NCBI RefSeq assembly: GCF_000007985.2
Contig: NC_002939.5
Coordinates: forward strand, 1,050,001 to 1,082,000
Source of the DNA: Geobacter sulfurreducens PCA
Lineage (GTDB): Bacteria > Desulfobacterota > Desulfuromonadia > Geobacterales > Geobacteraceae
Length of the DNA stretch: 32,000 bases
Reading direction: 5' to 3'
Below, piece by piece: positions 5,860 through 24,587 of the stretch (positions are counted from its first letter, which is position 1; each line of letters begins with the position of its first letter). The position numbers and the translations under genes were made by a program. Under the pieces are notes generated by a model. The model searched no databases. It was not told the origin of the DNA and saw nothing but the letters and a program-made list of their open reading frames with translations.

Positions 5860-5862
5860 CCC

Positions 5863-7053: not shown

Positions 7054-7068
7054 GGGGAGGTGCGGGGC

Positions 7069-7686: not shown

Positions 7687-7689
7687 GCC

Positions 7690-9421: not shown

Positions 9422-9451
9422 AATCCTTCGCGGTGTCGGGGGAGATGGGGC

Positions 9452-9602: not shown

Positions 9603-9652
9603 TGGAACAAGAGGCGGCTGTTTGTTGGAAAATCAGTTTGAAGGAGATTTTC

Positions 9653-9949
9653 ATGCCGATGGCGGCACGGACAGGAGATATGACATCCCACGGCACTCCC
9701 CTGGGGCCGGGGCCCGGCTGCGCCACGGTGCTCATCGGCGGCATGCCGGCCTGGCGGGCGGGGAGCGATTTTCACGCCTGCCCGCTCATGAATCCGGGGC
9801 CGTCGCCCCACGTGGGGGGGACAGTGGCGGCGGGGAGCGCCACGGTTTTGATCGGCGGCCTGCCGGCGGCCCGGCAGGGGGATTCCATCGTGGAGTCGGG
9901 GCCGCCCAACAGCATTACCCTGGGGTGTCCCACGGTGATGATCGGATAG
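9653..9949 (+). CDS. PAAR-domain spike tip protein (Afp10-like)
   Basis: ATG at 9653 with RBS AAGGAG 7 nt upstream. MPMAARTGD..HG...GPG..TVLIGGMPA.R.GD...C...GP..H.GG.V..GS.TVLIGGLPAARQGD is a typical PAAR repeat architecture. The longer ORF from 9500 is rejected. Confidence 0.85.
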   Translation: MPMAARTGDMTSHGTPLGPGPGCATVLIGGMPAWRAGSDFHACPLMNPGPSPHVGGTVAAGSATVLIGGLPAARQGDSIVESGPPNSITLGCPTVMIG

Positions 9950-9959
9950 GGAGGGCGCA

Positions 9960-10361
9960 GTGACCAAGGCCAGAGAATTCCTGGGCACGGGATGGAAGTT
10001 TCCGGTGGCGGCGGGGGCGGATGGCGCCATGGTCCTCTCTTCGGCCGAAGAGGACATCGCCGAGTCGATTCGCATCATTCTCGGCACTGCCCGGGGAGAG
10101 CGGGTCATGCGCCCCGATTTCGGCTGCGGCATCCACGACCGCGTCTTCTCGGTGATCAACACCACCACCCTGGGACTGATCGAGAACGAGGTGAAGGAGG
10201 CCCTTATCCTGTGGGAACCCCGGATCGAGCTGTTGTCCGTGACCGCCTCACCCCGGGAGGCGGCCGAGGGAAGACTCCTGATCGATATCGAATACCGGGT
10301 GCGGAGCACCAACACCCGGTTCAACCTGGTGTACCCGTTCTATCTGAAGGAAAGCGCGTGA
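9960..10361 (+). CDS. GPW/gp25-family baseplate wedge protein (Afp9-like)
   Basis: GTG start after GGGAGGG. FLGTGWKFP....G.......EEDI.ESIRIILGT..GERVMRPDFG..I.D.VF matches the gp25 family. Confidence 0.9.
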   Translation: MTKAREFLGTGWKFPVAAGADGAMVLSSAEEDIAESIRIILGTARGERVMRPDFGCGIHDRVFSVINTTTLGLIENEVKEALILWEPRIELLSVTASPREAAEGRLLIDIEYRVRSTNTRFNLVYPFYLKESA

Positions 10362-10380
10362 CATCGAGGTGCGAACTGCC

Positions 10381-13300: not shown

Positions 13301-13740
13301 CCCTGCGCCGGCGGGTGGAGGAGTTTGTCGCCGGTCACGGCGCCAACGTAGTGACCGCCCCCTGCCATGCCGTGGTGACCCGGCCGTCCTACGTGCGGGT
13401 GTCGGTTGATGCCGCCCTGGTGCCCCGCAGCCTCGACCAGGCCCCCGCCGTGGAGACGGCGGCCCTTGCCGCTCTCGGGCGGTTCCTCCATCCCCTGACC
13501 GGCGGGTGGGACGGCGGAGGGTGGCCCTTTGGCCGCCTGGTCTGCCATTCGGACCTCTACCGCTTGCTGGAGGAGATCGAAGGGGTTGATCGGGTGGCAA
13601 GCATGGCGGTAACGGCCGTCGATGAAATGGGACGTCGGATGGAGCTTGGCGAGGCGGATGAGTTGACGCGGCCGGTGGACCCCTATCTGCTCGTTTCCAG
13701 CGGAGACCATCGGGTCGCGGCACGGGCCGGCGACGTATAG
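10381..13740 (+). CDS. Large Baseplate_J-like baseplate protein (Afp11-like) with an inserted helix-hairpin-helix module
   Basis: ATG at 10381 with GAGGTG 10 nt upstream. The C-terminal third (RVSYRTGGGAAGN...VTVEDYEGLIREQFP...GWPFGR.V..SDLY..LE.IEGVD) is Baseplate_J-like. The insert at 11458-11660 contains VQGIGAVFSARLRGAGIATAGELL. Confidence 0.85.
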   Translation: MNADLPLIDGRTAADVVEKIRATAPFYVPEWSGGVDGDAGSALTGVFGDMVVEVLQRLNRVPERHLAAFLEVLGLRLLPPRPAETVVVFTLAKDADRSALVASGTQVMAEKTTDHPELLFETDENVLAVPSRITALYSTIPDTAGGREKVFGHTEAWTAGSSFTIFHGTENLQEHALYLRQTGLFTVRSGVEIHLSGVPRALADQVAWSYTDADGRETLFGARFDGAGGTLILSTGAGRPELGRCVVNGIDGIWLKGVPKVGADGTTALARVKDAVLRTVVGVGTRSLPTAVIHPDVAFAGDVPQDLTVTAGGDFIRNLLPFGDKPMPLAAFHLASREVFSKRGARITLRITCATDLDVPIERVQGIGAVFSARLRGAGIATAGELLSRSDAQVAGIIRAPGSARPASSYLLRARNIREATAKAYYDKTGAVSYRSGRAAALGPGLSWEYWNGTGWCAISDVTDSTGGLLATGEVTFTCPADMAEVEVSGQRNWWIRVRLSSGDYGREFEIVNGQAVAAGFTPPRLGRITLSWDGTDPSAMGEPDSILTRNNLEWDDGLAVLRTGAVFRPFRPLADLRPAFYAGFDRPLAKGPIGLYLDLAEIDYARDFRPRVQWEVYDAGACEWLRLDAEDGTAGLTRAGIVRVVVPEGGVPAPLFGTRLHWLRAVLVAGEYAPTALGAGLPYRLRRGYLNIPRIIGRPAHLKGSILNPARWRSWRQLPSNSPPIARGIYLNAARALQLTSVRNERPGSGNGLPDQSFTLARKPVFDDQVWVNEFGLISAAELDRLAADAPGRVSRVTDREGRVSEVWVRWEGRDDLLASGPLDRHYGIDRSSGLVSFGNGKRGRVLPAGTNNVRVSYRTGGGAAGNLGWGAIARMRTGIPLVDKVVNPGPCGGGVEGEDISALYRRGPQSLRRRDRAVTVEDYEGLIREQFPGMALVKCLPVCDDRGMTRTGWLTVIIVPRAADDRPIPSAALRRRVEEFVAGHGANVVTAPCHAVVTRPSYVRVSVDAALVPRSLDQAPAVETAALAALGRFLHPLTGGWDGGGWPFGRLVCHSDLYRLLEEIEGVDRVASMAVTAVDEMGRRMELGEADELTRPVDPYLLVSSGDHRVAARAGDV

Positions 13741-13763
13741 CACCATGCGGGAGTGAGAGCGTT

Positions 13764-15797
13764 ATGCCCATAGTACCGATACCGGATCTTGACGACAAAC
13801 GATACGCCGACCTGGTGCGGGAGGCAGTGGCGAGCCTTGCGGTGCGCGCACCGGCGTGGACCGACCACAACGCATCGGACCCGGGGATCACATTGGTGGA
13901 GCTCTTCGCCTGGCTGGCGGAGATGCAGATCTACGGGCTCAACTGCCTTACCCCCGACCACTACCGGACCTTCCTCCGTCTCGTGGGTATCCGGCCGGTT
14001 CCGGCAGTGCCCGCCACCGTGGCCCTGACCCTCTCATCCACCGCCGGACGGGAGTTGATGATCCCGCGAGGTACGCGCCTCACGGCCGAGACGGGAGGGG
14101 AACCCCTTCCCTTCGAGACGACGGCCGACCTGTTCCTGCTGAACAACCGGATCGCTGCCGTCATCAGCGCCTGGGGCGGCGGCTTCCGCAATGTCACCGA
14201 TGCCAATGCCCGCGATGCCTTCTTTTTCCCTGCCTTCGGCGAGCAGCCGGCACCGGGGGGCACGCTCCTCATCGCCTTTGAGCGGATGCTTCCGGCAGGG
14301 CGGGAGGTGCGCCTCGCCATCGATCTCTACGAAGCAGACCTGCCCCCCGTGGGTGCCCACCGGGGCGAACCGGCCGCCGTCGTACCCCCGGTGGATCTGG
14401 TCTGGGAGTATTCCACGGAGGCCGGTTACCGTCGGCTCGATCTGCTGGAGGACGGCACCACCGGCCTGACCCGCTCCGGACAGATTCTCTTTTCAGTGCC
14501 TGCCGACATGACGGCGACCACCTCGCCTTACCTGCCGGCAACGGTGCCTGCGCCGCGCTTTCCCATGATCCGCTGTCGCCTGCCGGAAGAGAGCACCGCC
14601 GTGCCGCTGCCTTCCGAGGGTCTGTCGGCATGCCGCCGCGCCGCCGCCCGGCAGGGGACGGGCTTCTATGAGATACCTCCGCGCATCGACTCCATCCGCC
14701 TCAATACGGTGACGGCGCGCCAAGCGGTATCGGTGGTGGACGAGAACCTTGTCTCTTCATCCGGCACCGACTGGGGCAATGGCATGCCGGGACAGGTAGT
14801 TTCCCTTGCCCGGCGGCCGGCCATGGAGGGGAGCCTCAGGGTCAGGGTCCTGACCGGCACCGATTGGGAAGAGTGGGCCGAACGCGACAACCTGGACGCC
14901 TCGGGGCCCACGGACCGGCATTTCGTACTCGACCCGGCGGTCGGTACCATCCTTTTCGGTGATGGCCGCAACGGGCGGGTTTTGCCGGAGGGGGCTCGGG
15001 TGCGGGCCGACTACCTGTCAGGCGGGGGCGCGGCGGGAAACCTGAGGCCCCTGGCATCGTGGCGCTTCGATGATCCCCTGCTGGCGGACCTTGCCGCGCG
15101 CAATGACGCGTCCGCCAGCGGCGGCAGAGACGCCGAGCCGCTCGAGGAGGCCATTGCCCGCGCCCCCCTGGAACTGCGGGAGGTGGACCGGGCCATAACC
15201 TCCGATGATTTCGAGTATCTGGCGCTGAATACCCCCGGTCTCCGGGTGGCCCGCGCCCGGGCGCTTCCCCTCTGGGAGCCGGAAGCGCCGGAGGATCGTC
15301 CTGTGCCGGCCACGGTGACCGTGGTCGTGGTCCCCTGGTCCTTTACCCCGCGGCCGTATCCCGGCCCACGGTTCCTGCGCGCGGTGTGCGACCACCTGGA
15401 TCGCCACCGGCTGGTGACGACCCGCGTCAGGGTGATCCCTCCCCTCTACGCGCAGGTGACGGTCAGAACACGGGTCAGCGCCGGTGAAGGGGTACGTCCC
15501 GAGGAGTTGCGAGCGCGGGTGGCCGAACGGCTTCTGGAGTTTCTTCATCCCCTGAAGGGGGGTGAGGACGGGACGGGGTGGCCTTTTGGCAGAGGGGTCT
15601 ACCGTTCGGAGATCATTGCAGCCATCAGGGAGGTGAGCGGTGTGGAATGCGTGCTGGAGACGACGCTTTCGGGCGATACGTGCACGCGGGTCGACGGCGA
15701 GGGCAACCTGATGATAGACCGGGACGCCCTGGTCTATTCCGAACGGCACGAGGTGGACGTGACTGCCCGCTCCGGCCGGTGCACCGTCACGTACTGA
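13764..15797 (+). CDS. Second Baseplate_J-like baseplate protein (paralogue of the preceding gene)
   Basis: N-terminus DKRYADLVREA...APAWTDHNASDPGITLVELFAWLAEMQIYGLN. C-terminus ADYLSGGGAAGN ... ITSDDFEYLALNTPG...GWPFGRGVYRSEIIAAIREVSGVE parallels the C-terminus of the 10381..13740 product. Confidence 0.8.
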   Translation: MPIVPIPDLDDKRYADLVREAVASLAVRAPAWTDHNASDPGITLVELFAWLAEMQIYGLNCLTPDHYRTFLRLVGIRPVPAVPATVALTLSSTAGRELMIPRGTRLTAETGGEPLPFETTADLFLLNNRIAAVISAWGGGFRNVTDANARDAFFFPAFGEQPAPGGTLLIAFERMLPAGREVRLAIDLYEADLPPVGAHRGEPAAVVPPVDLVWEYSTEAGYRRLDLLEDGTTGLTRSGQILFSVPADMTATTSPYLPATVPAPRFPMIRCRLPEESTAVPLPSEGLSACRRAAARQGTGFYEIPPRIDSIRLNTVTARQAVSVVDENLVSSSGTDWGNGMPGQVVSLARRPAMEGSLRVRVLTGTDWEEWAERDNLDASGPTDRHFVLDPAVGTILFGDGRNGRVLPEGARVRADYLSGGGAAGNLRPLASWRFDDPLLADLAARNDASASGGRDAEPLEEAIARAPLELREVDRAITSDDFEYLALNTPGLRVARARALPLWEPEAPEDRPVPATVTVVVVPWSFTPRPYPGPRFLRAVCDHLDRHRLVTTRVRVIPPLYAQVTVRTRVSAGEGVRPEELRARVAERLLEFLHPLKGGEDGTGWPFGRGVYRSEIIAAIREVSGVECVLETTLSGDTCTRVDGEGNLMIDRDALVYSERHEVDVTARSGRCTVTY

Positions 15798-15812
15798 CAC
15801 GGGAGACACGGC

Positions 15813-17822
15813 GTGGAAGACAACGAGTACACCATAATCCATGTGGCGAGCGGCGAGGCATGGGCCGCCGGGGCAGCCACCAACGGCCTGGTGGCCGTGG
15901 GAGACGGCGGACTGGCACTGGCCGGCGAGATGGTGCACGGCCTCGACCGCCGTCTGGGGCTCGCGGGACGCATCCGCCCCGACGCCCTGGTGGCTGATCG
16001 CTGCGGAACGCTGATCATGCTGGCCGGCGAGCGCTTCTATCGTCTGGACCCCATGTCCGGCCGACTGGAGCGGATACCCTGTCTCGGCGGCAGGGGGGAC
16101 AGGGCGGGGGAACTGAGTGGACCCCGGGCCATGGCTCTGGGGAGCCGCAATCTCTACGTGGCCGATACGGACAACAACCGGGTCTGCGTCTTTGCCACGG
16201 TTAACTGGCAGGTGCGCCGGTTTATCGGAGCCGAGAACCCGGCAGGGGAACCGGCGGCCGGAACCGGTCCGGGGGAGTTCGACCGCCCCCTGGATCTGGC
16301 GGTGGACCCCTGCGACAACCTCTATGTGCTCGATGCCGGCAACCGGCGCATCCAGCGTTTCGATTACCATGGCGAACCCGTGCCCCATGTGCCCCCCTTC
16401 GGCGCCGACCGGCTGAAGCAGCCGGTGGCGCTGGCGCTGGGCCCGGCTCCCTCCCCGTCCGGCGGGGGGGCCCTGGTCCACTGCCTCGATACGGGGCTCA
16501 CCGCCATCGTTACCTTTGACGACCAGGGCCGGTTCCTGGGCACCGTCGGCCTGGACGACCTCGGCTTCGAGCCTGCCGGTCTGGCGGTGGACGCCGACGG
16601 CAAATGGTACGTCTCTGATCGGGAGCGGTTCATCTATGCCATCAGGTCGGCAGGTGACTGGAGCCCTCTGGAGGAGTACGAGGGGAAGGCCCTGCGGCTG
16701 TTCGCCGGTCCCGGCGGGGAGTTTTACGCCCTGGAAGATGGGGAGGTGGCCCGCCTCACCCGTCGCCGTCGCTATCCGCCGGCAGGCTCGTGGACCGGCA
16801 GCGGCCCGGTAACGGGCATCTACACTTCCCGCTCATTCGATACCGGCGACGGCCGCCTCTTCTGGCACCGGGTGACGCTGGACGCGACGGTCCCCCCAAA
16901 GACCCAGGTGCGACTTTCCTACTTCATCTACGAAACCGGCCGCGATCCGGAGCTCCTGCCGGCCGACGGCGAGTGGCGAAGTTTCCCGTCCAATCCGGCC
17001 GACGCCCTTTTTGAGCGGAAGGAGGGACGGTATCTGAGGGTGCGCCTGGAACTGATCTCCGAAGACCGGCATGCCACCCCCACAGTGGTGAGCCTCCGCC
17101 TCCAGTTTCCCAAACAATCGTATCTCCGCTACCTTCCGGCCGTCTTCCAGGACGACGAGCGGGGGCGTGATTTCCTGGAGCGGTTTCTTTCCCTGTTCGA
17201 GAGCGTCCTTTACGACCTGGAGCGCGAAATATTCACGACCCGGCGCTATGCCGACCCCTGTGCCGTACCGGCCGGCTTCCTTCCCTGGCTCGCCTCGTGG
17301 CTGGCGCTCCCCGATGCGGACCAGTGGCTCGAAGATGGCGGGGCACGGCTGCGCACACTGATCGCCCGGGCCAATGAGCTGTACCGTTGTCGGGGCACCC
17401 GGGGTGGACTGGCGGAACTCATCACTCTTTACACCGGCAAGGAACCGTGGATTGTGGAGGCGTTCCAGTTGGACCGCATCCGGGGCCGGAGCGAGTGGCG
17501 CGAAACCATGAGGCTCTTCGGGGAAGATCCCTACCACTTCACGGTTCTCCTGCCGCCGGGCGGCGCAGGGAGGACCGAAACCGTAAAGCGGATCGTGGCG
17601 CGCGAGCGCCCGGCCCACACCTGTGCCACGGTAGTTGCCCTGGAGAACCTGTTCCGGCTTGGGGGGCACACCTACCTGGAAGTCAATACCAACCTGAACC
17701 AGCCCCTCTTTGCCCTGGAGACCTCCTCGTCGCTCGCCCGGCAGACCTATCTGGCCGACGGCGAGAAGGCGGGGCAGGCGCAGGTCCGGGCGCGACAGGG
17801 CATGGATACATTGTTTGAGTGA
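15813..17822 (+). CDS. P2 gpI-like tail/baseplate protein (Afp12-like) with N-terminal NHL-repeat beta-propeller
   Basis: GTG start 6 nt after GGGAGA. NHL-type repeats: NLYVADTDNNRVCVF, NLYVLDAGNRRIQRFD, KWYVSDRERFIY. The C-terminal LRYLPAVFQDDE...FLERFLSLFESVL..LE.EI......ADP...P..FLPWLASWL.L......W......R.LI..A.ELY..RGT..GL matches the phage tail protein I domain. Confidence 0.8.
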   Translation: MEDNEYTIIHVASGEAWAAGAATNGLVAVGDGGLALAGEMVHGLDRRLGLAGRIRPDALVADRCGTLIMLAGERFYRLDPMSGRLERIPCLGGRGDRAGELSGPRAMALGSRNLYVADTDNNRVCVFATVNWQVRRFIGAENPAGEPAAGTGPGEFDRPLDLAVDPCDNLYVLDAGNRRIQRFDYHGEPVPHVPPFGADRLKQPVALALGPAPSPSGGGALVHCLDTGLTAIVTFDDQGRFLGTVGLDDLGFEPAGLAVDADGKWYVSDRERFIYAIRSAGDWSPLEEYEGKALRLFAGPGGEFYALEDGEVARLTRRRRYPPAGSWTGSGPVTGIYTSRSFDTGDGRLFWHRVTLDATVPPKTQVRLSYFIYETGRDPELLPADGEWRSFPSNPADALFERKEGRYLRVRLELISEDRHATPTVVSLRLQFPKQSYLRYLPAVFQDDERGRDFLERFLSLFESVLYDLEREIFTTRRYADPCAVPAGFLPWLASWLALPDADQWLEDGGARLRTLIARANELYRCRGTRGGLAELITLYTGKEPWIVEAFQLDRIRGRSEWRETMRLFGEDPYHFTVLLPPGGAGRTETVKRIVARERPAHTCATVVALENLFRLGGHTYLEVNTNLNQPLFALETSSSLARQTYLADGEKAGQAQVRARQGMDTLFE

Positions 17823-17943
17823 ACCTGAAACCGGCAGGCGACGGAAGCCTTTGGAACGAGCGGGCCCAGGAGCAGCGGAACCAGGCCGTTTGAACGGAGA
17901 GGGTCATGTTGCCTGACGAACAGATGAATAAAAGGAGGACGCC

Positions 17944-19830
17944 ATGTCGAACGACCGCACCCTGAGCCCATTCCAGAGAAACCTCTATTTTTACGGCAAG
18001 CTGATGACAGTCCGGGACTTCGAGATGGAGCAGTCCTACCTGAACGGCAAGCGCCACCTGATCAACAGGATGGTGCTCGGCACTGGAGCGGTATGCGGCC
18101 TTGAGGTGACCGCCTCCTGGGACGAGTCGAAAAAGACTGTCGCGCTCAGTGTCGGCGAAGGTGTGGCCATTGACTGCGGCGGCCGGGAGATCGTGGTGGA
18201 CAGACCCTCCGCCGTCACCTTCGAGCCGGCCCCGGATGTCACGTCCTACTGCCTCTGGCTGAGCCGGGAGGACTGCCGCATTGAACCGGCTCCGGCCCCC
18301 ATGGCCGACAGCGGCAACGCCTGCGGCGAAACCTGCTGCTACAGCCGGGTGCGGGAGGATTTTTCCCTGGCCGTGCAGAAATGGGATGGCCCGGTCCCGT
18401 CGGTTGACGACGCCTGGTCCGGCCTCTTCACCACGGAGACGACCGATAGTCGGGCGGACATCCGGGCTCTGTTGAAGGCCCACTTCGACCGGATTCTGGC
18501 CGGCTGCCCTGCCTGCGGGGAGCCCTGCCGGGTGCCGTTGGCCCTGGTGATACGCAAGGGAGGTGCCTGGAGCGGCACCCCGGACATCATCCAGAACATC
18601 GTCGTGCACACCAATCCTGAACTATTCGAGATGATTCGCCGCCACCTGACCGACCTGGGCAACCCCCATATGACCACCGCAGCCCAGGTGGGAGCGCTGA
18701 AGAGCGTGGACGGGGTCGAGAATCCGGGCGGCAACGTGGACCTGGTGGCGGCAAACGCCGTCCAGATCACGCCCAACACCACCGCCAGGACCATCACGAT
18801 CGGTGAGAGCCATTCGGGGGTCACCGGCAACCCCCACAACACCCGGCACGAGCAGACCGGTCCGGCCTGTGTTGACCCCGCAAGTGACGATACCACCTGC
18901 GATAAGCACGTCTCCAACGCCAATGCCATGCGCTGGAACCGCTCTCTGGCAGGGCTCACCGTGAACGGCGGCAGCCTTGTCGTCAATCCCGGCGCGGCCA
19001 TCGACCTGGCAGCCGGACAGAATGTGACCCTGGCCGCCGATCCCGCCGGCAAGAAGATCACCATCAGCGCCGCAGGCGGCGGAGGGGCCTCGGCCCGCAC
19101 GGGGCGGATCTCCATCACGACCAATTCCGACGGCGTAGGCACGGCGCGGGTTACCTCCGGGTTTGACGATAATCTCTTCTGCGTGCAGGTAGGCATAGAT
19201 TACGGTGAGCACGTGGAATACGGTTCGGTCCTCCGCTATGCCGGCCAGACGGCGTTCATCACGGTGCGGGTGCTCAGGTACCAGGACGTCGGAAGCTTCG
19301 ATATCATGTTCTCCGCTCCGGGGGTCGGCCAGCGCACGCTGTCTCTGCGCTGGGTCGCCATCCCGGCCGTTGCCGTTGCGGAGCCGACAATAACCGTGAC
19401 GTCTCCCACCGTTACGGTTACCTCGCCCACATTCACCCTCACGCAACCGACCTTTACCATGACGCAGCCCACGTTTACCCTGACCCGCCCGACCTTCACC
19501 ATGACCGCGCCAACGCTCACGATGCCCACTATCCCAACCATGACCATCCCGAGCGTAACCATCCACGGCCCGATCATGAGTGGTCCCGGAACAGTGGAGG
19601 CCCCCACGGTGATCGTTCCCCCCGGTAAGAGCACGCAGTCTCCGCACCTGACGGACGTGAAGGGGATCGGGCCGGCCTTGGCCGGGAAACTGACGGCAGC
19701 CGGCATCTCGACCATTGCCGATCTTGCGGCCGCCTCCGTCAATGCCGTGGCGGCCGCCCTGGGTGTCAGCGATCCCGCTCGGGCGCGCGGTTTTATCGAC
19801 GCGGCCAGGAAATTGGCTAAAAAACGATGA
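17944..19830 (+). CDS. Tail-fibre-like protein (Afp13 position) with Thr-rich heptad repeats and C-terminal helix-hairpin-helix
   Basis: Strong RBS AAAGGAGGA. Fibre-type motif GNPHMTTAAQVGA plus a second GNPHNTRHEQ. Heptad array at 19384-19551. C-terminus VKGIGPALAGKLTAAGISTIADL. Confidence 0.7.
   Translation: MSNDRTLSPFQRNLYFYGKLMTVRDFEMEQSYLNGKRHLINRMVLGTGAVCGLEVTASWDESKKTVALSVGEGVAIDCGGREIVVDRPSAVTFEPAPDVTSYCLWLSREDCRIEPAPAPMADSGNACGETCCYSRVREDFSLAVQKWDGPVPSVDDAWSGLFTTETTDSRADIRALLKAHFDRILAGCPACGEPCRVPLALVIRKGGAWSGTPDIIQNIVVHTNPELFEMIRRHLTDLGNPHMTTAAQVGALKSVDGVENPGGNVDLVAANAVQITPNTTARTITIGESHSGVTGNPHNTRHEQTGPACVDPASDDTTCDKHVSNANAMRWNRSLAGLTVNGGSLVVNPGAAIDLAAGQNVTLAADPAGKKITISAAGGGGASARTGRISITTNSDGVGTARVTSGFDDNLFCVQVGIDYGEHVEYGSVLRYAGQTAFITVRVLRYQDVGSFDIMFSAPGVGQRTLSLRWVAIPAVAVAEPTITVTSPTVTVTSPTFTLTQPTFTMTQPTFTLTRPTFTMTAPTLTMPTIPTMTIPSVTIHGPIMSGPGTVEAPTVIVPPGKSTQSPHLTDVKGIGPALAGKLTAAGISTIADLAAASVNAVAAALGVSDPARARGFIDAARKLAKKR
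19384..19551 (+). repeat. Eight tandem 21-nt (7-aa) repeats, consensus P-T-[FIVL]-T-[VLM]-T-x, within the fibre gene
   Basis: PTITVTS PTVTVTS PTFTLTQ PTFTMTQ PTFTLTR PTFTMTA PTLTMPT IPTMTIP. The DNA units differ at synonymous positions, so this is an old, protein-level repeat. Confidence 0.85.
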
Positions 19831-21092
19831 ACGTTGTATTCGTCCATCCTTCCTATCCGAACCAGTTCACCGGGATAGCCAACGCTCTTTCCCGGAAAAG
19901 GGGGTGGGAGTGTGCCTTTCTGGTGGATCGGGCGTTCACCGGGCAGATCCGCCGGGACAAGCCCCCTGTCGCCTACTACGGGTACGGGGAGGAGGCATCG
20001 CCCCTGTCGGGGACCTACTACACCCGCTGCATCGAGGAGGGGGCGCGCCGGGGCAAGGCCATCGTGGAGGCCCTGGCGCACATCCATGCCTCGACCGGCA
20101 TCGACGCCGTGGTGGGGCACGCATCCTTCGGGGCAACCCTGTTCGTTCGGGAGATTCTCGCTATCCCTGTGGTCTCCTATGTGGAGCTGCCCGGATACCA
20201 TCCGGCCTTCTGCCGGGATGAATTCCCGGGCCGGTATCCCCAGAGCCTTATGGACGTGGCCCTGCGCTCTCTTATTCATTCGAGTGTGATTCATTCGGAT
20301 CTCTGCGTGGTTCCCTCCGCCTACGCCCGCGACCTGTTCCCACCAGAGCTTCGCAACAAGGTACGGGTCCGGATGGAGGGGTTTGCCCTGCCTCCCCCGG
20401 CAGGTGACCGGGAGGCTCTGCGGCGTGAACTGGGCATAACCGGGAACGGGCCGGTCATCGGCTTTGCGGGCAGGACCCTGGAGGCGGTGCGGGGCTTCGA
20501 CGTGTTTGTCCGGGCCGTCGGCAGGATTCGTGCCGTCCGCCCCGACGCACACTTCCTCGTCGTTGGCGATGAGACGAGCATCTACGGCAACGAAGCATCC
20601 TACCTGGGGGGGGCCTCGTTCAAGCAGCATGCCCTCCGGCAGGAAGGAATGGAGGATGAGGAGTTCATCTTCCGGCCCTTTGTCCCCCACGACCAGTTCG
20701 TGCGCTACCTCCAGGCCATGGATGTCATCCTGTTTCCCTTGTTCGAGGGGGCGGCCAACTGGGGACTGTTCGAGGCCATGGCCGCCGGCGTGCCGGTGAT
20801 TGCCTCCCGGCGCTGCTTTATCCCCGAGGTGATCGAGGACGGGCGCGACGGGATCCTGCTGGATGCCGCGGACGCAGAAGGGTTCGCGGCCGCGGCCCTG
20901 GCGCTGCTGGAAGACAGTGCCCGCGCCGAGGCCATGAGCCGGGCCGGCCGGCAGAAAATTGCCCGATCGTTCTCCGTAGAGCGGGCCGCAAGCGGCTATG
21001 CCGCCATTATTCGTGAGGCGATACGCCGTCACGGCAGCGGAGCACGAAACCCTTACTGCGGGCGGGAACGGGGCATCTGTCCTGCGGCATGA
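19827..21092 (+). CDS. Glycosyltransferase, GT-B fold (GT4 / Glycos_transf_1-like)
   Basis: ATGA overlap with the fibre gene stop at 19827-19830. C-terminal FPLFEGAANWGLFEAMAAGVPVIAS......E.I.DG..G.L carries the E-x7-E retaining-GT signature. Confidence 0.85.
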   Translation: MNVVFVHPSYPNQFTGIANALSRKRGWECAFLVDRAFTGQIRRDKPPVAYYGYGEEASPLSGTYYTRCIEEGARRGKAIVEALAHIHASTGIDAVVGHASFGATLFVREILAIPVVSYVELPGYHPAFCRDEFPGRYPQSLMDVALRSLIHSSVIHSDLCVVPSAYARDLFPPELRNKVRVRMEGFALPPPAGDREALRRELGITGNGPVIGFAGRTLEAVRGFDVFVRAVGRIRAVRPDAHFLVVGDETSIYGNEASYLGGASFKQHALRQEGMEDEEFIFRPFVPHDQFVRYLQAMDVILFPLFEGAANWGLFEAMAAGVPVIASRRCFIPEVIEDGRDGILLDAADAEGFAAAALALLEDSARAEAMSRAGRQKIARSFSVERAASGYAAIIREAIRRHGSGARNPYCGRERGICPAA

Positions 21093-21163: not shown

Positions 21164-24106
21164 ATGACATCTCAGAAAGCCGGACCGAAACCGATCAACA
21201 CAGCCAGGCGCCCGGAGCGACCCGCTCCGGTTCCGTCGCCGGCCCGGTCCGGCACGCCTGCCGGCCCGGTCCGACAGCTCCAGCAGACCATCGGTAACCG
21301 TCGAACGGGAGAGATGCTCAAGGCTGCGACCGCAGCCGATGCCACGGGGGAGACTGCCCCCGGCGTCATGGAGCTGAAGGGGATGCCCACCTTTGTGCCG
21401 CCCCCGCCCATTGCCGACTTCCTGAAGGAACGCACGCGAGGGAACGTCAATGTCCGGTTCGGCAGCCTCGCGGCCGGTCAGCTGGAGGTCCGCCGGGTCG
21501 GGCAACGTTACTCCGTGCGCGAACAGGCAATCCCCCTGACTCACCCCCTGTTCACGGGTGCCCTCGCCCCCTCTCTCCTTGTGGCGGTCGGCGACGGCGG
21601 AAAGATCCGGGGCCGGGTGGGCTTCGACGGGGGAAAAGGGAATCTCGCCGTACTGATCCGTAAGTCCCCTGACTTGGTGGGGCTCGGTGCCCTTGACCTG
21701 AGCCGGCTCGGCTCAGCGATCAATACCCTGGAGAACGGTGCCCTCCATCTGGGAATCAAGGGCACGCCGATCCGGATGGGAGGGGCGTTTACCGGTACCC
21801 TCACCCTTGAGGCGGTCAACGAGGCGATCACCTTTGAAGGGAGCGCGGCTGTGACCGTGCGGGGGCTCGCTTCGGGCAGCCTGGAGCTGAAACGGTCCAC
21901 CGAAGGGATCGTCACCGGTACGGCCACGGTGGGGCTCACTCTGCCCAAGGGGTTCTCCGGCAACGTGGCAGTGGGGTGGGACGGCCGGGCCATTACGGGT
22001 GAGGGTAAGGTCGGCTATACGGGGGAGAAGTTTTCCGGCGAGGTCCTCCTTCGTCTCATGGAAAAGGGGGCGGCGGCCCGACTCGAAGCCGCCAACACGG
22101 CCCCGGAGCGAACACCTGCACCGGCAGCCACGGTTGGTCCGCGTAGCGACAAGGTCGACTACGTGGTCTTCGGCGAGGGGGACCTTACCTTTGCCTTTAC
22201 CGACTGGCTGAACGGAACAGCCCACGTCATCGTCGACCCCCGGGGAAACCTCACCGTAATCGGCAAGATCACCCCCCAGAAAGAGTTCATCCTCTTTCCC
22301 CAGAAGGACTTCAACAAGGATCTCTTCAAGGTGGAGGCCCGGGCCTCCTACGGCATTCCCGTGGTGGGAAACATCTTCATTTTTGCCAACGTGGGGATGG
22401 GTGCCTTTGCCAAGCTTGGTCCGGCCAAGTTCTACAATATCGTGGTGGAGGGGACCTACTCCACCGACCCGAAAAAGGCGCAGAACTTCACTATCCAGGG
22501 GAGCCTCAATATCTCCGCCGCGGCCGGTCTCCGGCTCCGGGGCGAGGCCGGTGCCGGGCTCGAAATCCTGTCCCACGACATAAAGGCCGGCGCCGGCGTC
22601 AACGCCCTGGCCGGAATCAGGGGGTACGCGGAGGCGACGCCTGTCATCGGCTATCGGGAAAAAGGTGCCGAAGGAGAGGACAAAAAAGGGGAGTTCTTCA
22701 TCCGGGGCGACATGGAGATCGCGGCCCAGCCGTTCCTGGGGCTGTCGGGTGACCTTTTCGTGGAGATCGATGCCCCGTGGTGGTCGCCCGTCCCCGACAA
22801 GCGGTGGACCTGGCCCCTGGGGGGGAAGGAGTGGCCCATCGGCGGCAGTTTCGGCGTCGGCGCCACGGTGGATTACGTCTTCGGCTCCAGCCAAGCACCT
22901 TCTGTCGAGTTCAAGCCGGTGGAGTTTTCCGCTGAGAAGTTCATGACCGATCTCTACAGCGACAAGGCTACGGGAGGCTCCGGCGACAAGGGAGAGAAAA
23001 AGGGGGCGTGGAAGGAAAAGAATACCAGGGCGGCGGAGCCGCCGCCAAAGCAGGCGAAGAAGGGGGCGGCCCAGGAGGGAGAGGCGCCGAAACAATCTCC
23101 GGCAAAGGCCAGGGTTACGCCTGGAGGGCCCAAAAAAGCCAAAAAGCCTGCCGACCCCAACGCCCGGACCGCCGACGGCAAGACTGTTCGGCAGTATCAG
23201 GCGGAGGCAGAAAAAAGGGGGAAGAGACCGGGGGCGAAGGAGCCGGAAAAGAAGGCCGACAAGCCTGCAACCGACGTTGCCGCGCGCATGGGGCGGGTAA
23301 AGACGGCCCTGGATCAGGCCTTGGCCTATGCGGAGAAGACGGGGATTGGCCTCAACGAGCTCAATACCGTCCTGAAATCGATCCGTCGCCGCAAGGAGTA
23401 CGGTCTCAAGGAACTCAAGGCCCGGGACGGCGGCGAGAATTGGATCGTGGCGGCTACCCTCAATCCCACCCAGGATCTCAAGACCGTCAAGAAAAAGGGG
23501 AAAGCTGCCGCGGCAGGGGACCTCTACTATGAAAAGCCGTTCCCCATCCCTTCATACAAGGAGCACGCAGGGGCGGGCGCAAAGCACAAAACCCTCTATA
23601 CGGGACGGGCCAAGGCCGATAAGCTGTTCCATGAAAAAAGGGACCGCAAAACAGGTCAGGTCGGCAAGTGGGAATCCTGGGCGAGGCAGAACCTGAGCGA
23701 GCCCCTCAAGAAGAAAGCCGCTGACCTGGGCATGAGCGACCGGGATATCGTGCGCCCCCGTTTCAACCGGGCCGGGGAGAAGATGACCTTCCACATCGAT
23801 CATATCGTCGAATACCAGCTCCAGGGGGACGACGAGACTGAAAACTACTGGATGCTCCGGGGATCGGAAAATAGCAGTTCGGGCTCCACGCTCAAGGCCG
23901 CCATCGCGGCGGTCCGCACGGAGAGCGACAAGAAGCGTAAAGAGGACGGCCAGCCAGCCACGGTCAAGATATTCTTCAAAAATCCGGTTCTGGAAGGAAA
24001 CGCCGAAGATACCATCTACTGGAGGAAGTCGGAGATCAAGAAGGGCGATCACATCGCAGCGTACGAGAAACACCGCGACAGTTTGAAGAATCAGCTGAAG
24101 GAGTAA
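21164..24106 (+). CDS. Putative eCIS cargo/effector: disordered N-terminal leader with LQxTIGN motif, beta-rich middle, Lys-rich linker, C-terminal His-Me (HNH-like) nuclease motif
   Basis: Last gene of the + strand array. VRQLQQTIGNRRTGEML (21278-21319) resembles the LQRTIGNxAxxxLL motif at the N-terminus of DUF4157/eCIS-associated proteins. FHIDHIVEYQLQGDDETENYWMLRGSENSSSGSTLK shows a D-H...N...N...K spacing. Confidence 0.7.
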   Translation: MTSQKAGPKPINTARRPERPAPVPSPARSGTPAGPVRQLQQTIGNRRTGEMLKAATAADATGETAPGVMELKGMPTFVPPPPIADFLKERTRGNVNVRFGSLAAGQLEVRRVGQRYSVREQAIPLTHPLFTGALAPSLLVAVGDGGKIRGRVGFDGGKGNLAVLIRKSPDLVGLGALDLSRLGSAINTLENGALHLGIKGTPIRMGGAFTGTLTLEAVNEAITFEGSAAVTVRGLASGSLELKRSTEGIVTGTATVGLTLPKGFSGNVAVGWDGRAITGEGKVGYTGEKFSGEVLLRLMEKGAAARLEAANTAPERTPAPAATVGPRSDKVDYVVFGEGDLTFAFTDWLNGTAHVIVDPRGNLTVIGKITPQKEFILFPQKDFNKDLFKVEARASYGIPVVGNIFIFANVGMGAFAKLGPAKFYNIVVEGTYSTDPKKAQNFTIQGSLNISAAAGLRLRGEAGAGLEILSHDIKAGAGVNALAGIRGYAEATPVIGYREKGAEGEDKKGEFFIRGDMEIAAQPFLGLSGDLFVEIDAPWWSPVPDKRWTWPLGGKEWPIGGSFGVGATVDYVFGSSQAPSVEFKPVEFSAEKFMTDLYSDKATGGSGDKGEKKGAWKEKNTRAAEPPPKQAKKGAAQEGEAPKQSPAKARVTPGGPKKAKKPADPNARTADGKTVRQYQAEAEKRGKRPGAKEPEKKADKPATDVAARMGRVKTALDQALAYAEKTGIGLNELNTVLKSIRRRKEYGLKELKARDGGENWIVAATLNPTQDLKTVKKKGKAAAAGDLYYEKPFPIPSYKEHAGAGAKHKTLYTGRAKADKLFHEKRDRKTGQVGKWESWARQNLSEPLKKKAADLGMSDRDIVRPRFNRAGEKMTFHIDHIVEYQLQGDDETENYWMLRGSENSSSGSTLKAAIAAVRTESDKKRKEDGQPATVKIFFKNPVLEGNAEDTIYWRKSEIKKGDHIAAYEKHRDSLKNQLKE

Positions 24107-24119: not shown

Positions 24120-24515
24120 TTACCCCACCCGGAACATGGTCACTTCGGCCTCGGCCATGACCCGTCCGTCCAGTTCGACCCACCCCTTCACATCCACCAG
24201 GCGGCGCCGTTCGCCCGTCACCTGACCGATTACCGTTATCTCTGATCCGGTGGGTACCGGTTCGCGGTAGCGGAGGCGCAGCTCGCTGGTCACTATCTGG
24301 AGTCCGCTCGCCATGCAGGCTTGCGCGCAGATCTCGTCCAGCAGGGCCGAGATGATGCCGCCGTGGGTCACCCCCTGCCATCCCTGGAAGACCTCCGGGA
24401 TTCGAACGCGCGTCTCGGCGCGCCGCTCGTGAGGGTCGGTGACGAATTCCGCCTTGAGTCCGATGGGGTTGTCCTTGCCGCAGATGAAGCAGCGGCCGTC
24501 GTCGATGACTTGCAT
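24120..24515 (-). CDS. PaaI-family hotdog-fold thioesterase
   Basis: MQVIDDGRCFICGKDNPIGLKAEF...GWQGVTHGGIISALLDE is typical of the family. ATG at 24515 is preferred over 24557 or 24542 by homology-like N-terminus and an AGGA-type SD. Confidence 0.8.
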   Translation of the reverse strand: MQVIDDGRCFICGKDNPIGLKAEFVTDPHERRAETRVRIPEVFQGWQGVTHGGIISALLDEICAQACMASGLQIVTSELRLRYREPVPTGSEITVIGQVTGERRRLVDVKGWVELDGRVMAEAEVTMFRVG

Positions 24516-24587
24516 GGTTCCTGATCCTTTGTCTGCGTCCATCCGGCGCCCCGGCACACGGGCCCGCTACCATTGACCGATACGCGC

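What the first reader, a model, noticed from the sequence alone, without database searches (positions are those of the whole stretch)
22980..24106. Lys-rich histone-like linker plus C-terminal D-H...N...N...K His-Me finger motif, with no adjacent immunity-like gene
Seen: about 100 aa of KKGA/KKAKKP/EKKADKP low complexity (22980-23275) is followed by a helical region and then FHIDHIVEYQLQGDDETENYWMLRGSENSSSGSTLK (DH at 23798-23803). No Cys zinc ligands are present. The next gene (24120-24515) is convergent, only 13 nt away, and is a housekeeping-type thioesterase. Established: the DH, N, N spacing is the HNH/EndoVII (His-Me finger) catalytic signature. Zinc-less variants named by conserved residues (for example a DHNNK-type) were described among polymorphic toxin domains. 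Lys/Ala/Pro-rich tracts bind DNA non-specifically. Inference: this is a DNA-targeting nuclease payload, and the missing immunity gene fits delivery to non-kin or eukaryotic targets.
Basis: partly seen in the sequence, partly recalled or inferred. Interest (0 to 1): 0.65.

Follow-up and report, generated by a model that had tools for sequence, protein, structure and literature searches.

The report
Injection-system cargo with HNH nuclease toxin
The flagged stretch is the tail of GSU0992, the last gene of a phage-tail-like injection machine in Geobacter sulfurreducens. It most likely carries a swappable DNA-cutting toxin of an unnamed HNH subfamily: a new example of a known kind of weapon, not a new kind.

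Summary
ORF 21164-24106 (980 aa, no Cys) has a Lys-rich tract (aa 606-704), a helical module (705-793) and a C-terminal domain (794-980) holding D879-H880...N894...N903. The next gene is a convergent 4HBT thioesterase 13 nt away.

The window is Geobacter sulfurreducens PCA and the ORF is GSU0992. It is the last gene of a complete extracellular contractile injection system (eCIS) operon, GSU0972-0992. Its first ~780 aa recur in more than 130 proteins whose C-termini are swapped between nuclease, deaminase and other toxin families. It is therefore a polymorphic eCIS cargo.

The C-terminal domain belongs to an unannotated family. D, H, E, N and N are conserved or invariant, with the 14/9 spacing of the Cas9 HNH domain in 7enh. 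AlphaFold gives pLDDT 90 and a beta-beta-alpha core. All matches to HNH models are sub-threshold but in register.

The "DHNNK" label is not supported; the signature is DHxxE...N...N...G...R. The "histone-like DNA-binding linker" is not supported either. The tract is a conserved part of the constant carrier.

No immunity gene is seen in eight related loci where the next gene could be read. This is already known for eCIS toxins. The toxin is a new member of a known kind. The 550-aa beta carrier domain is the less charted part.

The parts
52..21092 (+). Upstream eCIS (phage-tail-like injection system) operon, GSU0972-GSU0991. In order: AAA ATPase (cut by the window edge), Pvc16_N cap, sheath, gp19 tubes, CIS_tube, VgrG-like OB spike, PAAR, gp25, two Baseplate_J, NHL+Tail_P2_I, a fibre-like protein with a C-terminal HhH, and a GT4 glycosyltransferase.
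   Evidence: Pfam hits. Locus tags come from the exact-sequence look-up and the tables in PMC10599522 and PMC11934962.
21164..24106 (+). GSU0992, 980 aa, annotated 'hypothetical protein'. A polymorphic eCIS cargo protein made of leader, beta carrier domain, Lys-rich linker, helical pre-toxin module and HNH-like toxin.
   Evidence: ORF. Exact match to AAR34319.1. No Pfam or NCBIfam hit on the whole protein. 130 homologues of the N-terminal part carry variable C-terminal toxin families.
21164..21340 (+). N-terminal leader, aa 1-59. It is hydrophilic, Pro/Arg-rich and probably disordered. It holds the motif LQQTIGN at aa 39-45 (21278-21298).
   Evidence: Sequence. The motif LQ[QR]xxGN occurs in the first 120 aa of 15 of 195 related proteins and only once elsewhere in them; several of these are eCIS_core (DUF4157) cargo. 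It is the only such motif in the window.
21341..22978 (+). Constant beta-rich carrier domain, aa 60-605. No named family.
   Evidence: 40-77% identity to 67 aligned homologues. 134 confirmed loci in GTDB species genomes, from many bacterial phyla and four archaeal lineages. AlphaFold pLDDT 88.9, all-beta, with strands up to 30 residues. No convincing fold match in PDB or BFVD.
22979..23275 (+). Lys/Ala/Pro-rich linker, aa 606-704, net charge +13. It is part of the constant region.
   Evidence: Composition. Conserved consensus KGKWxEKNSKAAxPPxK...GKPADPNAxTxxGKTVKQLQDEAxKKGKKP, majority-residue frequency 0.47-0.56. BLAST homology to most carriers runs through it.
23276..23542 (+). Helical 'pre-toxin' module, aa 705-793 (conserved core about aa 709-783). 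It is shared by carriers with different toxins, including a DUF4157-type carrier.
   Evidence: The exhaustive search gave hits covering only query residues 5-94, in proteins such as P0069, P0123, P0125, P0133, P0038 and P0046. The module is visible in P0031 and P0046, which carry PF13930 toxins, and in P0121.
23543..24103 (+). HNH-like toxin domain, aa 794-980. Conserved residues: P865, D879, H880, E883, N894, N903, G907, R918, W953, G961, H963.
   Evidence: 79 homologues at E<=1e-3. 33-sequence alignment A1. AlphaFold pLDDT 90.3, pTM 0.82. Weak, in-register matches to HNH models.
23789..23944 (+). Predicted beta-beta-alpha-metal core, aa 876-927. Strand 1 is FHIDH, ending in D879-H880. Strand 2 is YWMLR, just after N894. 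The helix begins at G900 and carries N903.
   Evidence: DSSP on the model: E83-87, E102-106, H107-134 in domain numbering. The H-to-N and N-to-N spacings of 14 and 9 equal those of the Cas9 HNH domain in 7enh_A.
24120..24557 (-). Convergent 4HBT thioesterase. Gene callers use 24120-24515 (131 aa). It is a housekeeping neighbour, not part of the system.
   Evidence: Pfam PF03061, E = 3e-11. The same gene order occurs in two near-identical contigs. Further downstream are fumarase, MutM, DnaB, LpxA-like and FabMG.

Best explanation
GSU0992 is a cargo (effector) protein of the Geobacter sulfurreducens extracellular contractile injection system.

Shown:
- It is the last gene of the eCIS operon, and published transcriptomes show it co-regulated with that operon.
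- Its first ~780 residues are a constant carrier: a leader with the LQxxGN motif, a ~550-aa beta domain, a conserved Lys-rich linker and a helical pre-toxin module.
- Its last ~190 residues are an exchangeable module. In related proteins this module is replaced by other toxin families.
- In GSU0992 the module belongs to an unnamed, eCIS-associated branch of the HNH / His-Me-finger superfamily.

Inferred, by analogy with Cas9 HNH and other one-metal beta-beta-alpha nucleases:
- H880 activates the attacking water.
- D879 and N903 hold a single Mg2+ or Mn2+ ion.
- N894 braces the hairpin.
- The domain therefore nicks or cuts DNA in the cell that receives it.

Inferred from what is known for PVC and Afp:
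- The protein is loaded into or onto the tube/spike with help from the operon's AAA ATPase, through its N-terminal leader.
- It is expelled when the sheath contracts.

The producer needs no neighbouring immunity gene for one of three reasons, and the data do not choose between them. The target may be a distant organism. The toxin may be kept unfolded or sequestered until loading. Or producing cells may lyse anyway to release the particles.
For: Context:
- The window carries a full set of eCIS genes directly upstream.
- An exact-sequence look-up identifies G. sulfurreducens PCA AAR34319.1, i.e. GSU0992.
- GSU0972-0992, including GSU0992, rise together by log2FC about 3-3.7 in two independent mutant transcriptomes (PMC10599522, PMC11934962).

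Polymorphism:
- 130 homologues of aa 1-605 carry C-termini from many families: PF13930, LHH, WHH plus colicin-DNase, AHH, GH-E, NucA_NucB, HNH_4, Ntox15, two deaminase families, DUF4157 and others.
- Homology to GSU0992 usually stops at aa 680-780.

Toxin family:
- 79 homologues were found at E<=1e-3.
- Conserved residues are P865, D879, H880, E883, N894, N903, G907, R918, W953, G961 and H963.
- AlphaFold pLDDT is 90.3, with strand-strand-helix exactly at the motif.
- A profile search of PDB gives as best hit a Cas9 HNH domain (7enh_A, E = 0.026), aligned DH on DH, N on N and N on N.
- With a 45-aa core profile, 9 of the top 10 PDB sequences are Cas9 HNH, Cas8f-HNH or McrA.
- 6 of 33 members hit Pfam HNH weakly and 3 of 33 hit HNH_4.
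- The relative P0130 passes the HNH gathering score, 22.8 against 21.4 bits.
- The non-significant Foldseek top list is led by HNH-type nucleases and an Rhs endonuclease toxin.

eCIS link of the toxin family:
- It sits behind eCIS_core/DUF4157 in P0121 and P0131.
- The same holds in six large proteins.
- All loci with readable context are eCIS loci.

Immunity: in L001/L077, L002/L083, L086 and L005 the toxin gene lies between the AAA ATPase and Pvc16 cap genes. The junctions overlap or are 3 nt wide, so there is no room for an immunity gene.
Against: - No HNH match for GSU0992 itself reaches significance. Pfam HNH gives E = 0.035 on the isolated domain and nothing on the full protein.
- Foldseek finds no significant structural neighbour (best E = 0.6, TM below 0.3). 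The fold call therefore rests on the local motif, the predicted secondary structure and in-register weak hits.
- Nuclease activity, toxicity, metal dependence, loading into particles and the target organism are all untested.
- The HNH-like domain also occurs internally in some 1000-2400-aa eCIS_core proteins. A terminal exchangeable toxin would not be expected in that position.
- The role of the extra conserved C-terminal W...G-[DE]-H motif is unknown.
Confidence: 0.75

Rival explanations
1. The C-terminal domain is an HNH-fold nuclease that acts inside the producer. It would degrade the producer's own DNA as part of programmed lysis that releases the particles, or of CIS-mediated self-killing as described for cytoplasmic Streptomyces CIS. 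It would not act on a foreign target.
For: No immunity gene lies next to any family member examined. Geller et al. raise lysis-coupled production as an explanation for missing immunity. Streptomyces CIS effectors mediate death of the producer.
Against: The carrier architecture and the swapping of C-terminal toxin types are the hallmark of delivered polymorphic toxins. The operon has a PAAR spike and a fibre-like gene, as expected for an outward-firing particle. Nothing in the window points to a lysis cassette.
Confidence: 0.1
2. The domain keeps the HNH scaffold but is not a toxin. It would be a nucleic-acid-binding or structural module of the carrier, or an inactive relic. GSU0992 as a whole would be a structural or assembly component of the eCIS.
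For: The beta carrier domain is extremely conserved and widespread. In some loci it sits between the ATPase and cap genes, like a core component. The HNH-like domain is internal in some large eCIS_core proteins. There is no significant HNH profile hit for GSU0992.
Against: The catalytic-type residues D, H, N and N are invariant or nearly so across 21-50% identity, which argues for retained chemistry. In sister proteins the same position holds bona fide toxin families such as colicin DNase, GH-E, AHH and deaminases.
Confidence: 0.08
3. One reading: a stand-alone DHNNK-type polymorphic toxin whose histone-like Lys-rich tract tethers it to DNA, independent of any injection machine.
For: The DH, N, N motif is present and Cys is absent. 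The tract is strongly basic, net +13. Most identifiable payloads in the family act on nucleic acids, so DNA affinity of the linker is not excluded.
Against: The signature differs from DH,N,N,N,K. No family other than HNH and HNH_4 recurred among the 33 members scanned against Pfam. The linker is constant across carriers with different payloads. The gene is embedded in and co-regulated with an eCIS operon.
Confidence: 0.05

Closest known systems
PVC/eCIS-delivered polymorphic toxins with HNH-fold payloads (Zhang et al. 2012, Biol Direct 7:18: Tox-HNH incl. Tox-HNH-CIDE, Tox-DHNNK, Tox-NucA; 'EATs' of Geller et al. 2021)
   Same: A constant N-terminal part with an exchangeable C-terminal toxin. 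Linked to a contractile injection gene cluster. Zinc-less HNH-type motif. An adjacent immunity gene is frequently absent. Close relatives of the same toxin domain sit behind the PVC-metallopeptidase / eCIS_core domain.
   Different: GSU0992 has no DUF4157/HExxH domain. Its constant part is a ~550-aa beta domain plus linker, which has no Pfam or NCBIfam model and which I did not see described in the eCIS papers I read. The toxin signature (DHxxE, N, N, G, R, W, G-H) is not the published DHNNK signature. It only matches the one-line 'DHxxE' description of HNH-CIDE.
Classical HNH endonuclease domain (Pfam PF01844 / PF13395), e.g. the Cas9 HNH domain, Cas8f-HNH, McrA
   Same: D-H at the end of strand 1, Asn before strand 2 and Asn on the following helix. 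The H-to-N and N-to-N spacings of 14 and 9 match the 7enh_A Cas9 HNH domain. The GGxD loop is present in family relatives and reads QGDD here. The predicted core is beta-beta-alpha.
   Different: Scores are below every curated threshold for this protein. The Pro after DHIV is replaced by an invariant Glu. There is no zinc-binding Cys. About 85 residues before the core and about 55 after it are conserved, and they have no counterpart in solved structures.
Endonuclea_NS_2 (PF13930) payloads found on sister carrier proteins
   Same: Same position on the same carrier. Same motif shape: [G/D]H-x5-GG-x5-N-x8-N.
   Different: Profile-profile comparison is not significant (hhalign E = 0.43). GH replaces DH.
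Colicin E7/E9-type DNases and T6SS/CDI HNH toxins with cognate immunity proteins
   Same: His-Me-finger DNase used as an inter-cellular toxin.
   Different: Those have an adjacent immunity gene and an HH...H metal site. Here no immunity gene is seen, in the window or in eight related loci where the next gene could be read. The metal ligands are D and N.
Pne1, the nuclease effector of Pseudoalteromonas MACs (as cited in Geller 2021)
   Same: A nuclease delivered by an extracellular contractile injection system.
   Different: No sequence comparison was made here. The resemblance is functional only.

Membership tests
HNH / His-Me finger (beta-beta-alpha-metal) nuclease superfamily | A beta-hairpin followed by an alpha-helix that carries the active site | tested here: met
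   AlphaFold model, pLDDT 90.3. Strands at aa 876-880 and 895-899, helix at 900-927. This is a prediction, not an experimental structure.
HNH / His-Me finger (beta-beta-alpha-metal) nuclease superfamily | A catalytic His at the end of strand 1, preceded by D or H, plus Asn/His residues on strand 2 and the helix, all conserved in homologues | tested here: met
   D879, H880 and N903 are invariant and N894 is at least 90% conserved in 33 sequences. D, H, N and N are invariant in the 23 core sequences. Spacing is 14/9, as in the Cas9 HNH of 7enh_A.
HNH / His-Me finger (beta-beta-alpha-metal) nuclease superfamily | A significant sequence-profile match to a curated HNH model or to a solved HNH structure | tested here: inconclusive
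   For GSU0992: no hit on the full protein, and HNH E = 0.035 (14.7 bits against cut-off 21.4) on the isolated domain. For the family: 6 of 33 hit HNH (best 4.7e-4), 3 of 33 hit HNH_4, and P0130 passes the cut-off. In PDB: Cas9 HNH at E = 0.026, and 9 of the top 10 core hits are HNH proteins at E 0.12-0.9.
HNH / His-Me finger (beta-beta-alpha-metal) nuclease superfamily | Whole-domain structural similarity to a solved member | tested here: not met
   Foldseek against PDB gives best E = 0.6 and TM below 0.3. The top hits are HNH-type nucleases or toxins, but none is significant. A small shared core inside a larger novel domain would behave this way.
HNH / His-Me finger (beta-beta-alpha-metal) nuclease superfamily | Divalent-metal-dependent nuclease activity | not testable with these tools
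   Needs a biochemical assay of aa 794-980, with and without D879A/H880A.
Tox-DHNNK (Zhang et al. 2011/2012; Pfam DUF1994 subset) | Conserved DH on strand 1, then N, N, (N) and K on the helix | tested here: not met
   DH, N894 and N903 are present. The next conserved positions are G907 and R918. K911 is not conserved and no third conserved Asn is seen.
Tox-DHNNK (Zhang et al. 2011/2012; Pfam DUF1994 subset) | A match to the family profile (DUF1994) or to the exemplar Dd586_1447 | tested here: inconclusive
   When the 33 members were scanned against Pfam-A at E<=10, no family other than HNH and HNH_4 was hit by more than one member. I could not confirm that DUF1994 is still a model in this Pfam copy. 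The exemplar sequence and the authors' alignments were not retrievable.
Tox-DHNNK (Zhang et al. 2011/2012; Pfam DUF1994 subset) | Association with SUKH, SuFu or Imm33 immunity genes | tested here: not met
   The genes downstream and upstream in the window are thioesterase, fumarase, MutM, DnaB, LpxA-like, FabMG and GT4. None is seen in related loci.
Tox-HNH-CIDE clade (Zhang et al. 2012) | DHxxE motif | tested here: met
   DHIVE, with E883 invariant in 33 sequences. This is the only published defining feature I could read.
Tox-HNH-CIDE clade (Zhang et al. 2012) | Specific relationship to the CAD/DFF40 and SphI nuclease domains | tested here: not met
   Neither CAD/DFF40 nor SphI appears among the PDB hits of the family profiles at E<=10, nor in Foldseek. 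HMMER may simply be too insensitive. HHpred was not available.
Polymorphic toxin system | A constant N-terminal region joined to C-terminal toxin domains that differ between homologues | tested here: met
Polymorphic toxin system | A cognate immunity gene immediately downstream | tested here: not met
   The next gene is a convergent thioesterase 13 nt away. In related loci the next gene is Pvc16_N, a glycosyltransferase or another eCIS_core gene. This exception is already documented for PVC/eCIS toxins.
eCIS-associated toxin / cargo (EAT) | Encoded in or at the 3' end of an eCIS operon and expressed with it | tested here: met
   Operon content. Co-regulation of GSU0972-0992 in two published RNA-seq studies.
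eCIS-associated toxin / cargo (EAT) | A hydrophilic, disordered N-terminal signal and/or a DUF4157 (eCIS_core) domain in cis or nearby | tested here: inconclusive
   The N-terminus is hydrophilic, Pro/Arg-rich and carries the LQxxGN motif shared with eCIS_core cargo. There is no DUF4157 in this protein or elsewhere in the window. No aromatic residue occurs in the first eight aa, unlike the Danov 2024 profile.
eCIS-associated toxin / cargo (EAT) | Physically loaded into particles and delivered | not testable with these tools
   Needs proteomics or cryo-EM of purified particles.

The most novel reading that the evidence does not exclude
The real novelty may lie in the constant part rather than in the HNH domain. 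The ~550-aa all-beta domain (aa 60-605) and its conserved basic linker would form a second, so far unnamed, universal eCIS cargo-carrier module. It would be an alternative to DUF4157. It has spread by horizontal transfer across more than a dozen bacterial phyla and several archaeal lineages.

Its unusually long beta-hairpins (28-30 residues) could mean one of two things. It may travel as an elongated body inside the tube. Or it may insert into the target membrane to pass the toxin through. The conserved KKxKK-type basic stretches could then act as a nuclear- or nucleoid-targeting signal for payloads that are almost all nucleases and deaminases.
Probability: 0.2. Interest if true: 0.7.

Novelty: new member of a known kind. 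Interest (0 to 1): 0.45.

Why it matters
GSU0992 is a 'hypothetical protein' in a heavily studied model organism. Its gene cluster has been reported as strongly induced in biofilm regulatory mutants 'with unknown function'. Reading the cluster as an eCIS, and GSU0992 as its nuclease-bearing cargo, gives those transcriptome results a concrete and testable meaning: Geobacter biofilms may deploy an injected DNase against neighbours or grazers.

More generally, this DHxxE-type HNH module is the commonest recognisable payload among the closest carrier homologues, about 20 of 120 by motif. No Pfam model captures it, so current eCIS toxin catalogues probably under-count it. The carrier domain is a further unannotated family with very wide distribution.

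Tried and rejected
- The word-indexed homologue search returned nothing with the C-terminal 276 aa. With the toxin alignment it returned one fragment. A 96%-identical protein (P0001) exists, so these negatives reflect the tool and are not evidence.
- The search for related loci could not use the 33-sequence toxin alignment. With the 2-sequence alignment it found no genome locus.
- Foldseek of the toxin model against PDB gave nothing significant.
- Foldseek of the carrier model gave LptD, MACPF and porin hits at E about 1e-4 to 1e-1, but with TM 0.15 and rmsd about 27 A. I treat these as generic long-beta-sheet similarity, not homology. BFVD gave nothing.
- hhalign of the toxin family against PF13930-type tails was not significant (E = 0.43).
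- I tried to obtain DHNNK or HNH-CIDE alignments from the supplements of Zhang 2011 and 2012. They are not held.
- I checked whether the carrier equals the Streptomyces effectors Sco4256-4258 or the tape-measure-like Sle1 effectors. By description it does not: those have a transmembrane or tape-measure-related architecture.
- A compositional break at the toxin boundary, as a sign of recent cassette exchange, was not found. GC3 is 0.77 against 0.80 for the carrier.
- The promoter/terminator scan around the gene was uninformative.

Full report
**1. The observation**

The region lies in one ORF, 21164-24106 on the + strand, 980 aa.
- aa 606-704 (nt 22979-23275) holds 21 Lys, 18 Ala and 12 Pro in 99 residues.
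- D879-H880 are encoded at 23798-23803, within FHIDHIVEYQLQGDDETENYWMLRGSENSSSGSTLK.
- The protein has no Cys.

The Lys enrichment is significant against the rest of the same protein (P = 2e-5). It is not a DNA-level repeat. The gene ends with TAA at 24104-24106. A convergent 4HBT thioesterase ends 13 nt later.

**2. Where it sits**

Pfam scans of the other ORFs show that 52-21092 is a complete extracellular contractile injection system (eCIS, PVC/Afp-like) operon. In order it encodes:
- AAA ATPase and Pvc16_N cap;
- sheath, two gp19 tubes and CIS_tube;
- VgrG-type OB spike and PAAR;
- gp25 and two Baseplate_J proteins;
- NHL+Tail_P2_I and a fibre-like protein;
- a GT4 glycosyltransferase.

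The ORF in question is the next and last gene. Everything downstream is housekeeping: thioesterase, class I fumarase, MutM, DnaB, an LpxA-like acyltransferase and FabMG.

An exact-sequence look-up identifies the window as Geobacter sulfurreducens PCA. The ORF is AAR34319.1, annotated 'hypothetical protein', and 38 near-identical copies exist in G. sulfurreducens, G. anodireducens and G. soli. In two published RNA-seq studies GSU0972-GSU0992 rise together, GSU0992 by log2FC 3.0-3.7, in delta-gsu1771 and delta-csrA biofilms. The authors call the cluster's function unknown (PMC10599522, PMC11934962).

**3. The protein is a polymorphic cargo**

The whole protein hits nothing in Pfam or NCBIfam. 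A search with aa 1-605 found 130 proteins of about 900-1050 aa, with 37-96% identity over that region. Their precomputed C-terminal Pfam domains differ from protein to protein:
- Endonuclea_NS_2 (8 proteins);
- LHH, AHH, GH-E, DNase_NucA_NucB, HNH_4 and Ntox15;
- WHH plus colicin-DNase;
- two deaminase families;
- DUF2380, DUF4157 and others.

BLAST shows that similarity to GSU0992 normally runs from aa ~60 to ~680-780 and then stops. The protein therefore divides as follows:
- leader, aa 1-59;
- constant beta domain, aa 60-605;
- Lys-rich linker, aa 606-704;
- helical pre-toxin module, aa 705-793;
- variable toxin, aa 794-980.

The linker is conserved in sequence, with consensus ...KGKWxEKNSKAAxPPxK...GKPADPNAxTxxGKTVKQLQDEAxKKGKKP. 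Its majority-residue frequency is 0.47-0.56, like the N-terminal half of the beta domain. The helical module recurs in front of unrelated toxins and in a DUF4157-type carrier. The Lys-rich tract is thus part of the carrier, not an accessory of this particular nuclease.

**4. The C-terminal domain**

An exhaustive phmmer search with aa 705-980 against 1.8 billion representatives found 79 proteins at E<=1e-3. One set matches only the pre-toxin module. The other matches aa ~805-975.

The best hit, P0121 (49% identity, E = 1e-52), is an eCIS_core (DUF4157) protein with the same toxin at its end.

An alignment of 33 members (A1, 21-50% identity) has these conserved positions:
- invariant: P865, D879, H880, E883, N903, G907, R918, W953, G961;
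- at least 90% conserved: Q832, W836, V878, N894, H963.

The signature is roughly VDHIVExQ...N[YF]ELLD..SN.SSG...R......W...EI..G[DE]H.

AlphaFold2 with this alignment gives pLDDT 90.3 and pTM 0.82. A strand ends in D879-H880, a second strand starts just after N894, and a long helix carries N903. This is a beta-beta-alpha arrangement.

Evidence that this is the HNH motif:
- The A1 profile's best PDB hit is a Cas9 HNH domain (7enh_A, E = 0.026). It aligns DH on DH, N on N and N on N, with identical 14- and 9-residue spacings.
- With a 45-residue core profile (A4), 9 of the top 10 distinct PDB sequences are Cas9 HNH, Cas8f-HNH or McrA, at E 0.12-0.9, all in register.
- 6 of 33 members hit Pfam HNH and 3 of 33 hit HNH_4, all below threshold. 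GSU0992's domain scores E = 0.035.
- One relative, P0130, passes the HNH gathering score.
- The Foldseek list against PDB is led by an Rhs endonuclease toxin, the Gme HNH nickase, NucB and Cas8-HNH. Nothing in it is significant (E>=0.6, TM below 0.3).

My reading is a divergent HNH core embedded in about 140 residues of family-specific structure.

A second, shorter variant occurs on about 14 sister carriers, with the motif DHVxExQxGGxDxxxNLWPL..S.N. It shares the core at hhalign probability 97% and E = 1.6e-11.

**5. Which named clade**

Zhang et al. define Tox-DHNNK by DH on strand 1 and N, N, (N), K on the helix. They typify it by Dd586_1447 and Pfam DUF1994. The present family keeps DH, N and N. 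It then has G907 and R918; K911 is not conserved. In the Pfam scan of the 33 members, only HNH and HNH_4 were hit by more than one member. I therefore do not file it under DHNNK.

The same paper says a 'DHxxE' motif characterises the Tox-HNH-CIDE clade, which is related to SphI and CAD/DFF40. E883 is invariant here, so that description fits. No link to CAD or SphI was detectable with the tools at hand. The clade assignment stays open. The superfamily assignment is the firm part.

**6. Link to injection systems, and immunity**

Every family member whose surroundings could be read lies in an eCIS context.
- L001/L077, L002/L083 and L086 are Thermodesulfobacteriota. The same carrier-plus-HNH architecture sits between the AAA ATPase and the Pvc16 cap genes, with overlapping junctions.
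- L005 has DUF4157 plus the toxin in the same slot, followed 3 nt later by a Pvc16 homologue.
- L007, L008 and L009 carry neighbouring eCIS_core, CIS_TMP, Pvc16_N and AAA genes.
- Six larger proteins carry the domain about 200 aa after an eCIS_core domain.

In none of the eight related loci where the downstream gene could be read is there a small conserved downstream gene that could encode immunity. In L009 the contig ends shortly after the toxin gene. This pattern is already described. Zhang et al. 2012 note that many PVC toxins lack adjacent immunity genes and suggest distant targets. Geller et al. 2021 call it an open puzzle and offer lysis-coupled production or DUF4157-mediated inactivation as explanations. 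By contrast, a membrane-anchored archaeal CIS does have toxin-immunity pairs.

**7. Mechanism proposed**

Shown:
- operon membership and co-expression;
- modular polymorphic architecture;
- conservation of a D-H/N/N site on a predicted beta-beta-alpha core.

Inferred by analogy with Cas9 HNH and other one-metal His-Me nucleases:
- H880 is the general base;
- D879 and N903 are metal ligands;
- N894 braces the hairpin;
- the substrate is DNA.

Inferred from PVC/Afp work cited: loading depends on the N-terminal leader and the AAA ATPase. The leader's LQ[QR]xxGN motif occurs in the first 120 aa of 15 of 195 related proteins, against once elsewhere in them. Only this protein in the window has it.

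**8. The carrier domain, outside the flagged coordinates**

aa 60-605 has no family name. tblastn confirmed 134 loci in GTDB species representatives at 39-65% identity. They come from Planctomycetota, Chloroflexota, Acidobacteriota, Pseudomonadota, Deinococcota, Nitrospirota, Bacillota, Cyanobacteria, Bacteroidota, Actinomycetota, Myxococcota, Thermodesulfobacteriota, and from Methanobacterium, Thor- and Bathyarchaeota and Haloferacaceae.

AlphaFold gives pLDDT 88.9 and an all-beta fold with strands of up to 30 residues. The Foldseek matches (LptD, MACPF pores, porins) have TM about 0.15 and are not credible as homology. The viral structure library gave nothing. This is the least charted element of the protein, and the novel-case reading rests on it.

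**9. Verdict**

- The nuclease-payload reading is supported at the level of fold family and genomic logic, but is untested biochemically.
- The DHNNK label and the histone-like linker idea are not supported.
- The missing immunity gene is typical of eCIS cargo, not special to this locus.
- The toxin is a new, unnamed member of a known kind.
- Interest is moderate. It is raised somewhat by the model-organism setting and by the unannotated, very widespread carrier domain.

Noticed in passing
window 21341-22978 (aa 60-605 of GSU0992); loci L010-L089: A ~550-aa all-beta domain with no Pfam or NCBIfam model. It is conserved at 39-65% identity in 134 genome loci, across a dozen bacterial phyla and four archaeal lineages. 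It acts as the constant part of many different toxin fusions. AlphaFold is confident (pLDDT 88.9) and predicts strands of up to 30 residues. There is no credible fold match in PDB or BFVD.
   Followed up: partly
window 21278-21298 (aa 39-45, LQQTIGN): An N-terminal motif LQ[QR]xxGN is shared with eCIS_core (DUF4157) cargo proteins. It occurs in the first 120 aa of 15 of 195 related proteins and only once elsewhere in them. It may be part of the loading signal. Many sister carriers lack it and start with a Pro/Ala-rich stretch instead.
   Followed up: partly
L001 6001-8799, L002 6001-8886, L005 868-3657, L077, L083, L086: In Thermodesulfobacteriota and one metagenomic locus the toxin-carrier gene sits between the AAA ATPase and the Pvc16 cap genes, with overlapping or 3-nt junctions. 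In Geobacter the ATPase and cap genes are adjacent and the carrier gene is at the 3' end, after a glycosyltransferase. The cargo gene has therefore moved within the operon.
   Followed up: partly
proteins P0158, P0179, P0177, P0181, P0170, P0130, P0155: The same HNH-like domain occurs internally, about 200 aa after an eCIS_core domain, in 950-2400-aa proteins with long uncharacterised C-terminal regions. P0130 and P0155 carry two copies of the DH-E motif, and P0130 also has two eCIS_core domains. An exchangeable terminal toxin would not be expected in that position.
   Followed up: no
window 19827-21092 (GSU0991) and 17944-19830 (GSU0990): A GT4 glycosyltransferase is encoded inside the eCIS operon, overlaps the stop of the fibre-like gene by 4 nt, and is co-induced with it. 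The fibre-like protein ends in a helix-hairpin-helix (HHH_5) domain and has Thr/Pro-rich 'PT[FL]T[LM]T' repeats. This hints that the fibre may be glycosylated.
   Followed up: no
window 10369-13740 and 13764-15797: Two consecutive Baseplate_J genes. The first is unusually large (1123 aa), and only its C-terminal third matches the family.
   Followed up: no
window 23276-23542 (aa 705-793): A conserved helical module (AxxALxYAEKTGIxLxELNxxLKSIxxxKEYG...W) lies directly before the toxin. It is shared by beta-domain carriers and DUF4157 carriers with different payloads. It is possibly a pre-toxin adaptor or a processing site.
   Followed up: partly
window 22979-23275: The conserved basic linker contains K[KR]x[KR] stretches: KKAK at aa 657 and KRGK at aa 684. 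The family consensus has KKGKKP. These resemble classical nuclear localisation signals. Most identifiable payloads on this carrier act on nucleic acids.
   Followed up: no
(tool behaviour): The word-indexed protein search missed a 96%-identical full-length homologue (P0001) when queried with the C-terminal 276 aa or with the toxin alignment. The exhaustive search found 79 relatives. Negatives from the indexed search are unreliable for this Lys- and charge-rich region.
   Followed up: yes
window 26639-26827: A 62-aa ORF with a Rho_N (SAP-like) domain (E = 3.5e-5) lies between fumarase and mutM. The same 59-aa gene is called in the near-identical contig L003.
   Followed up: no
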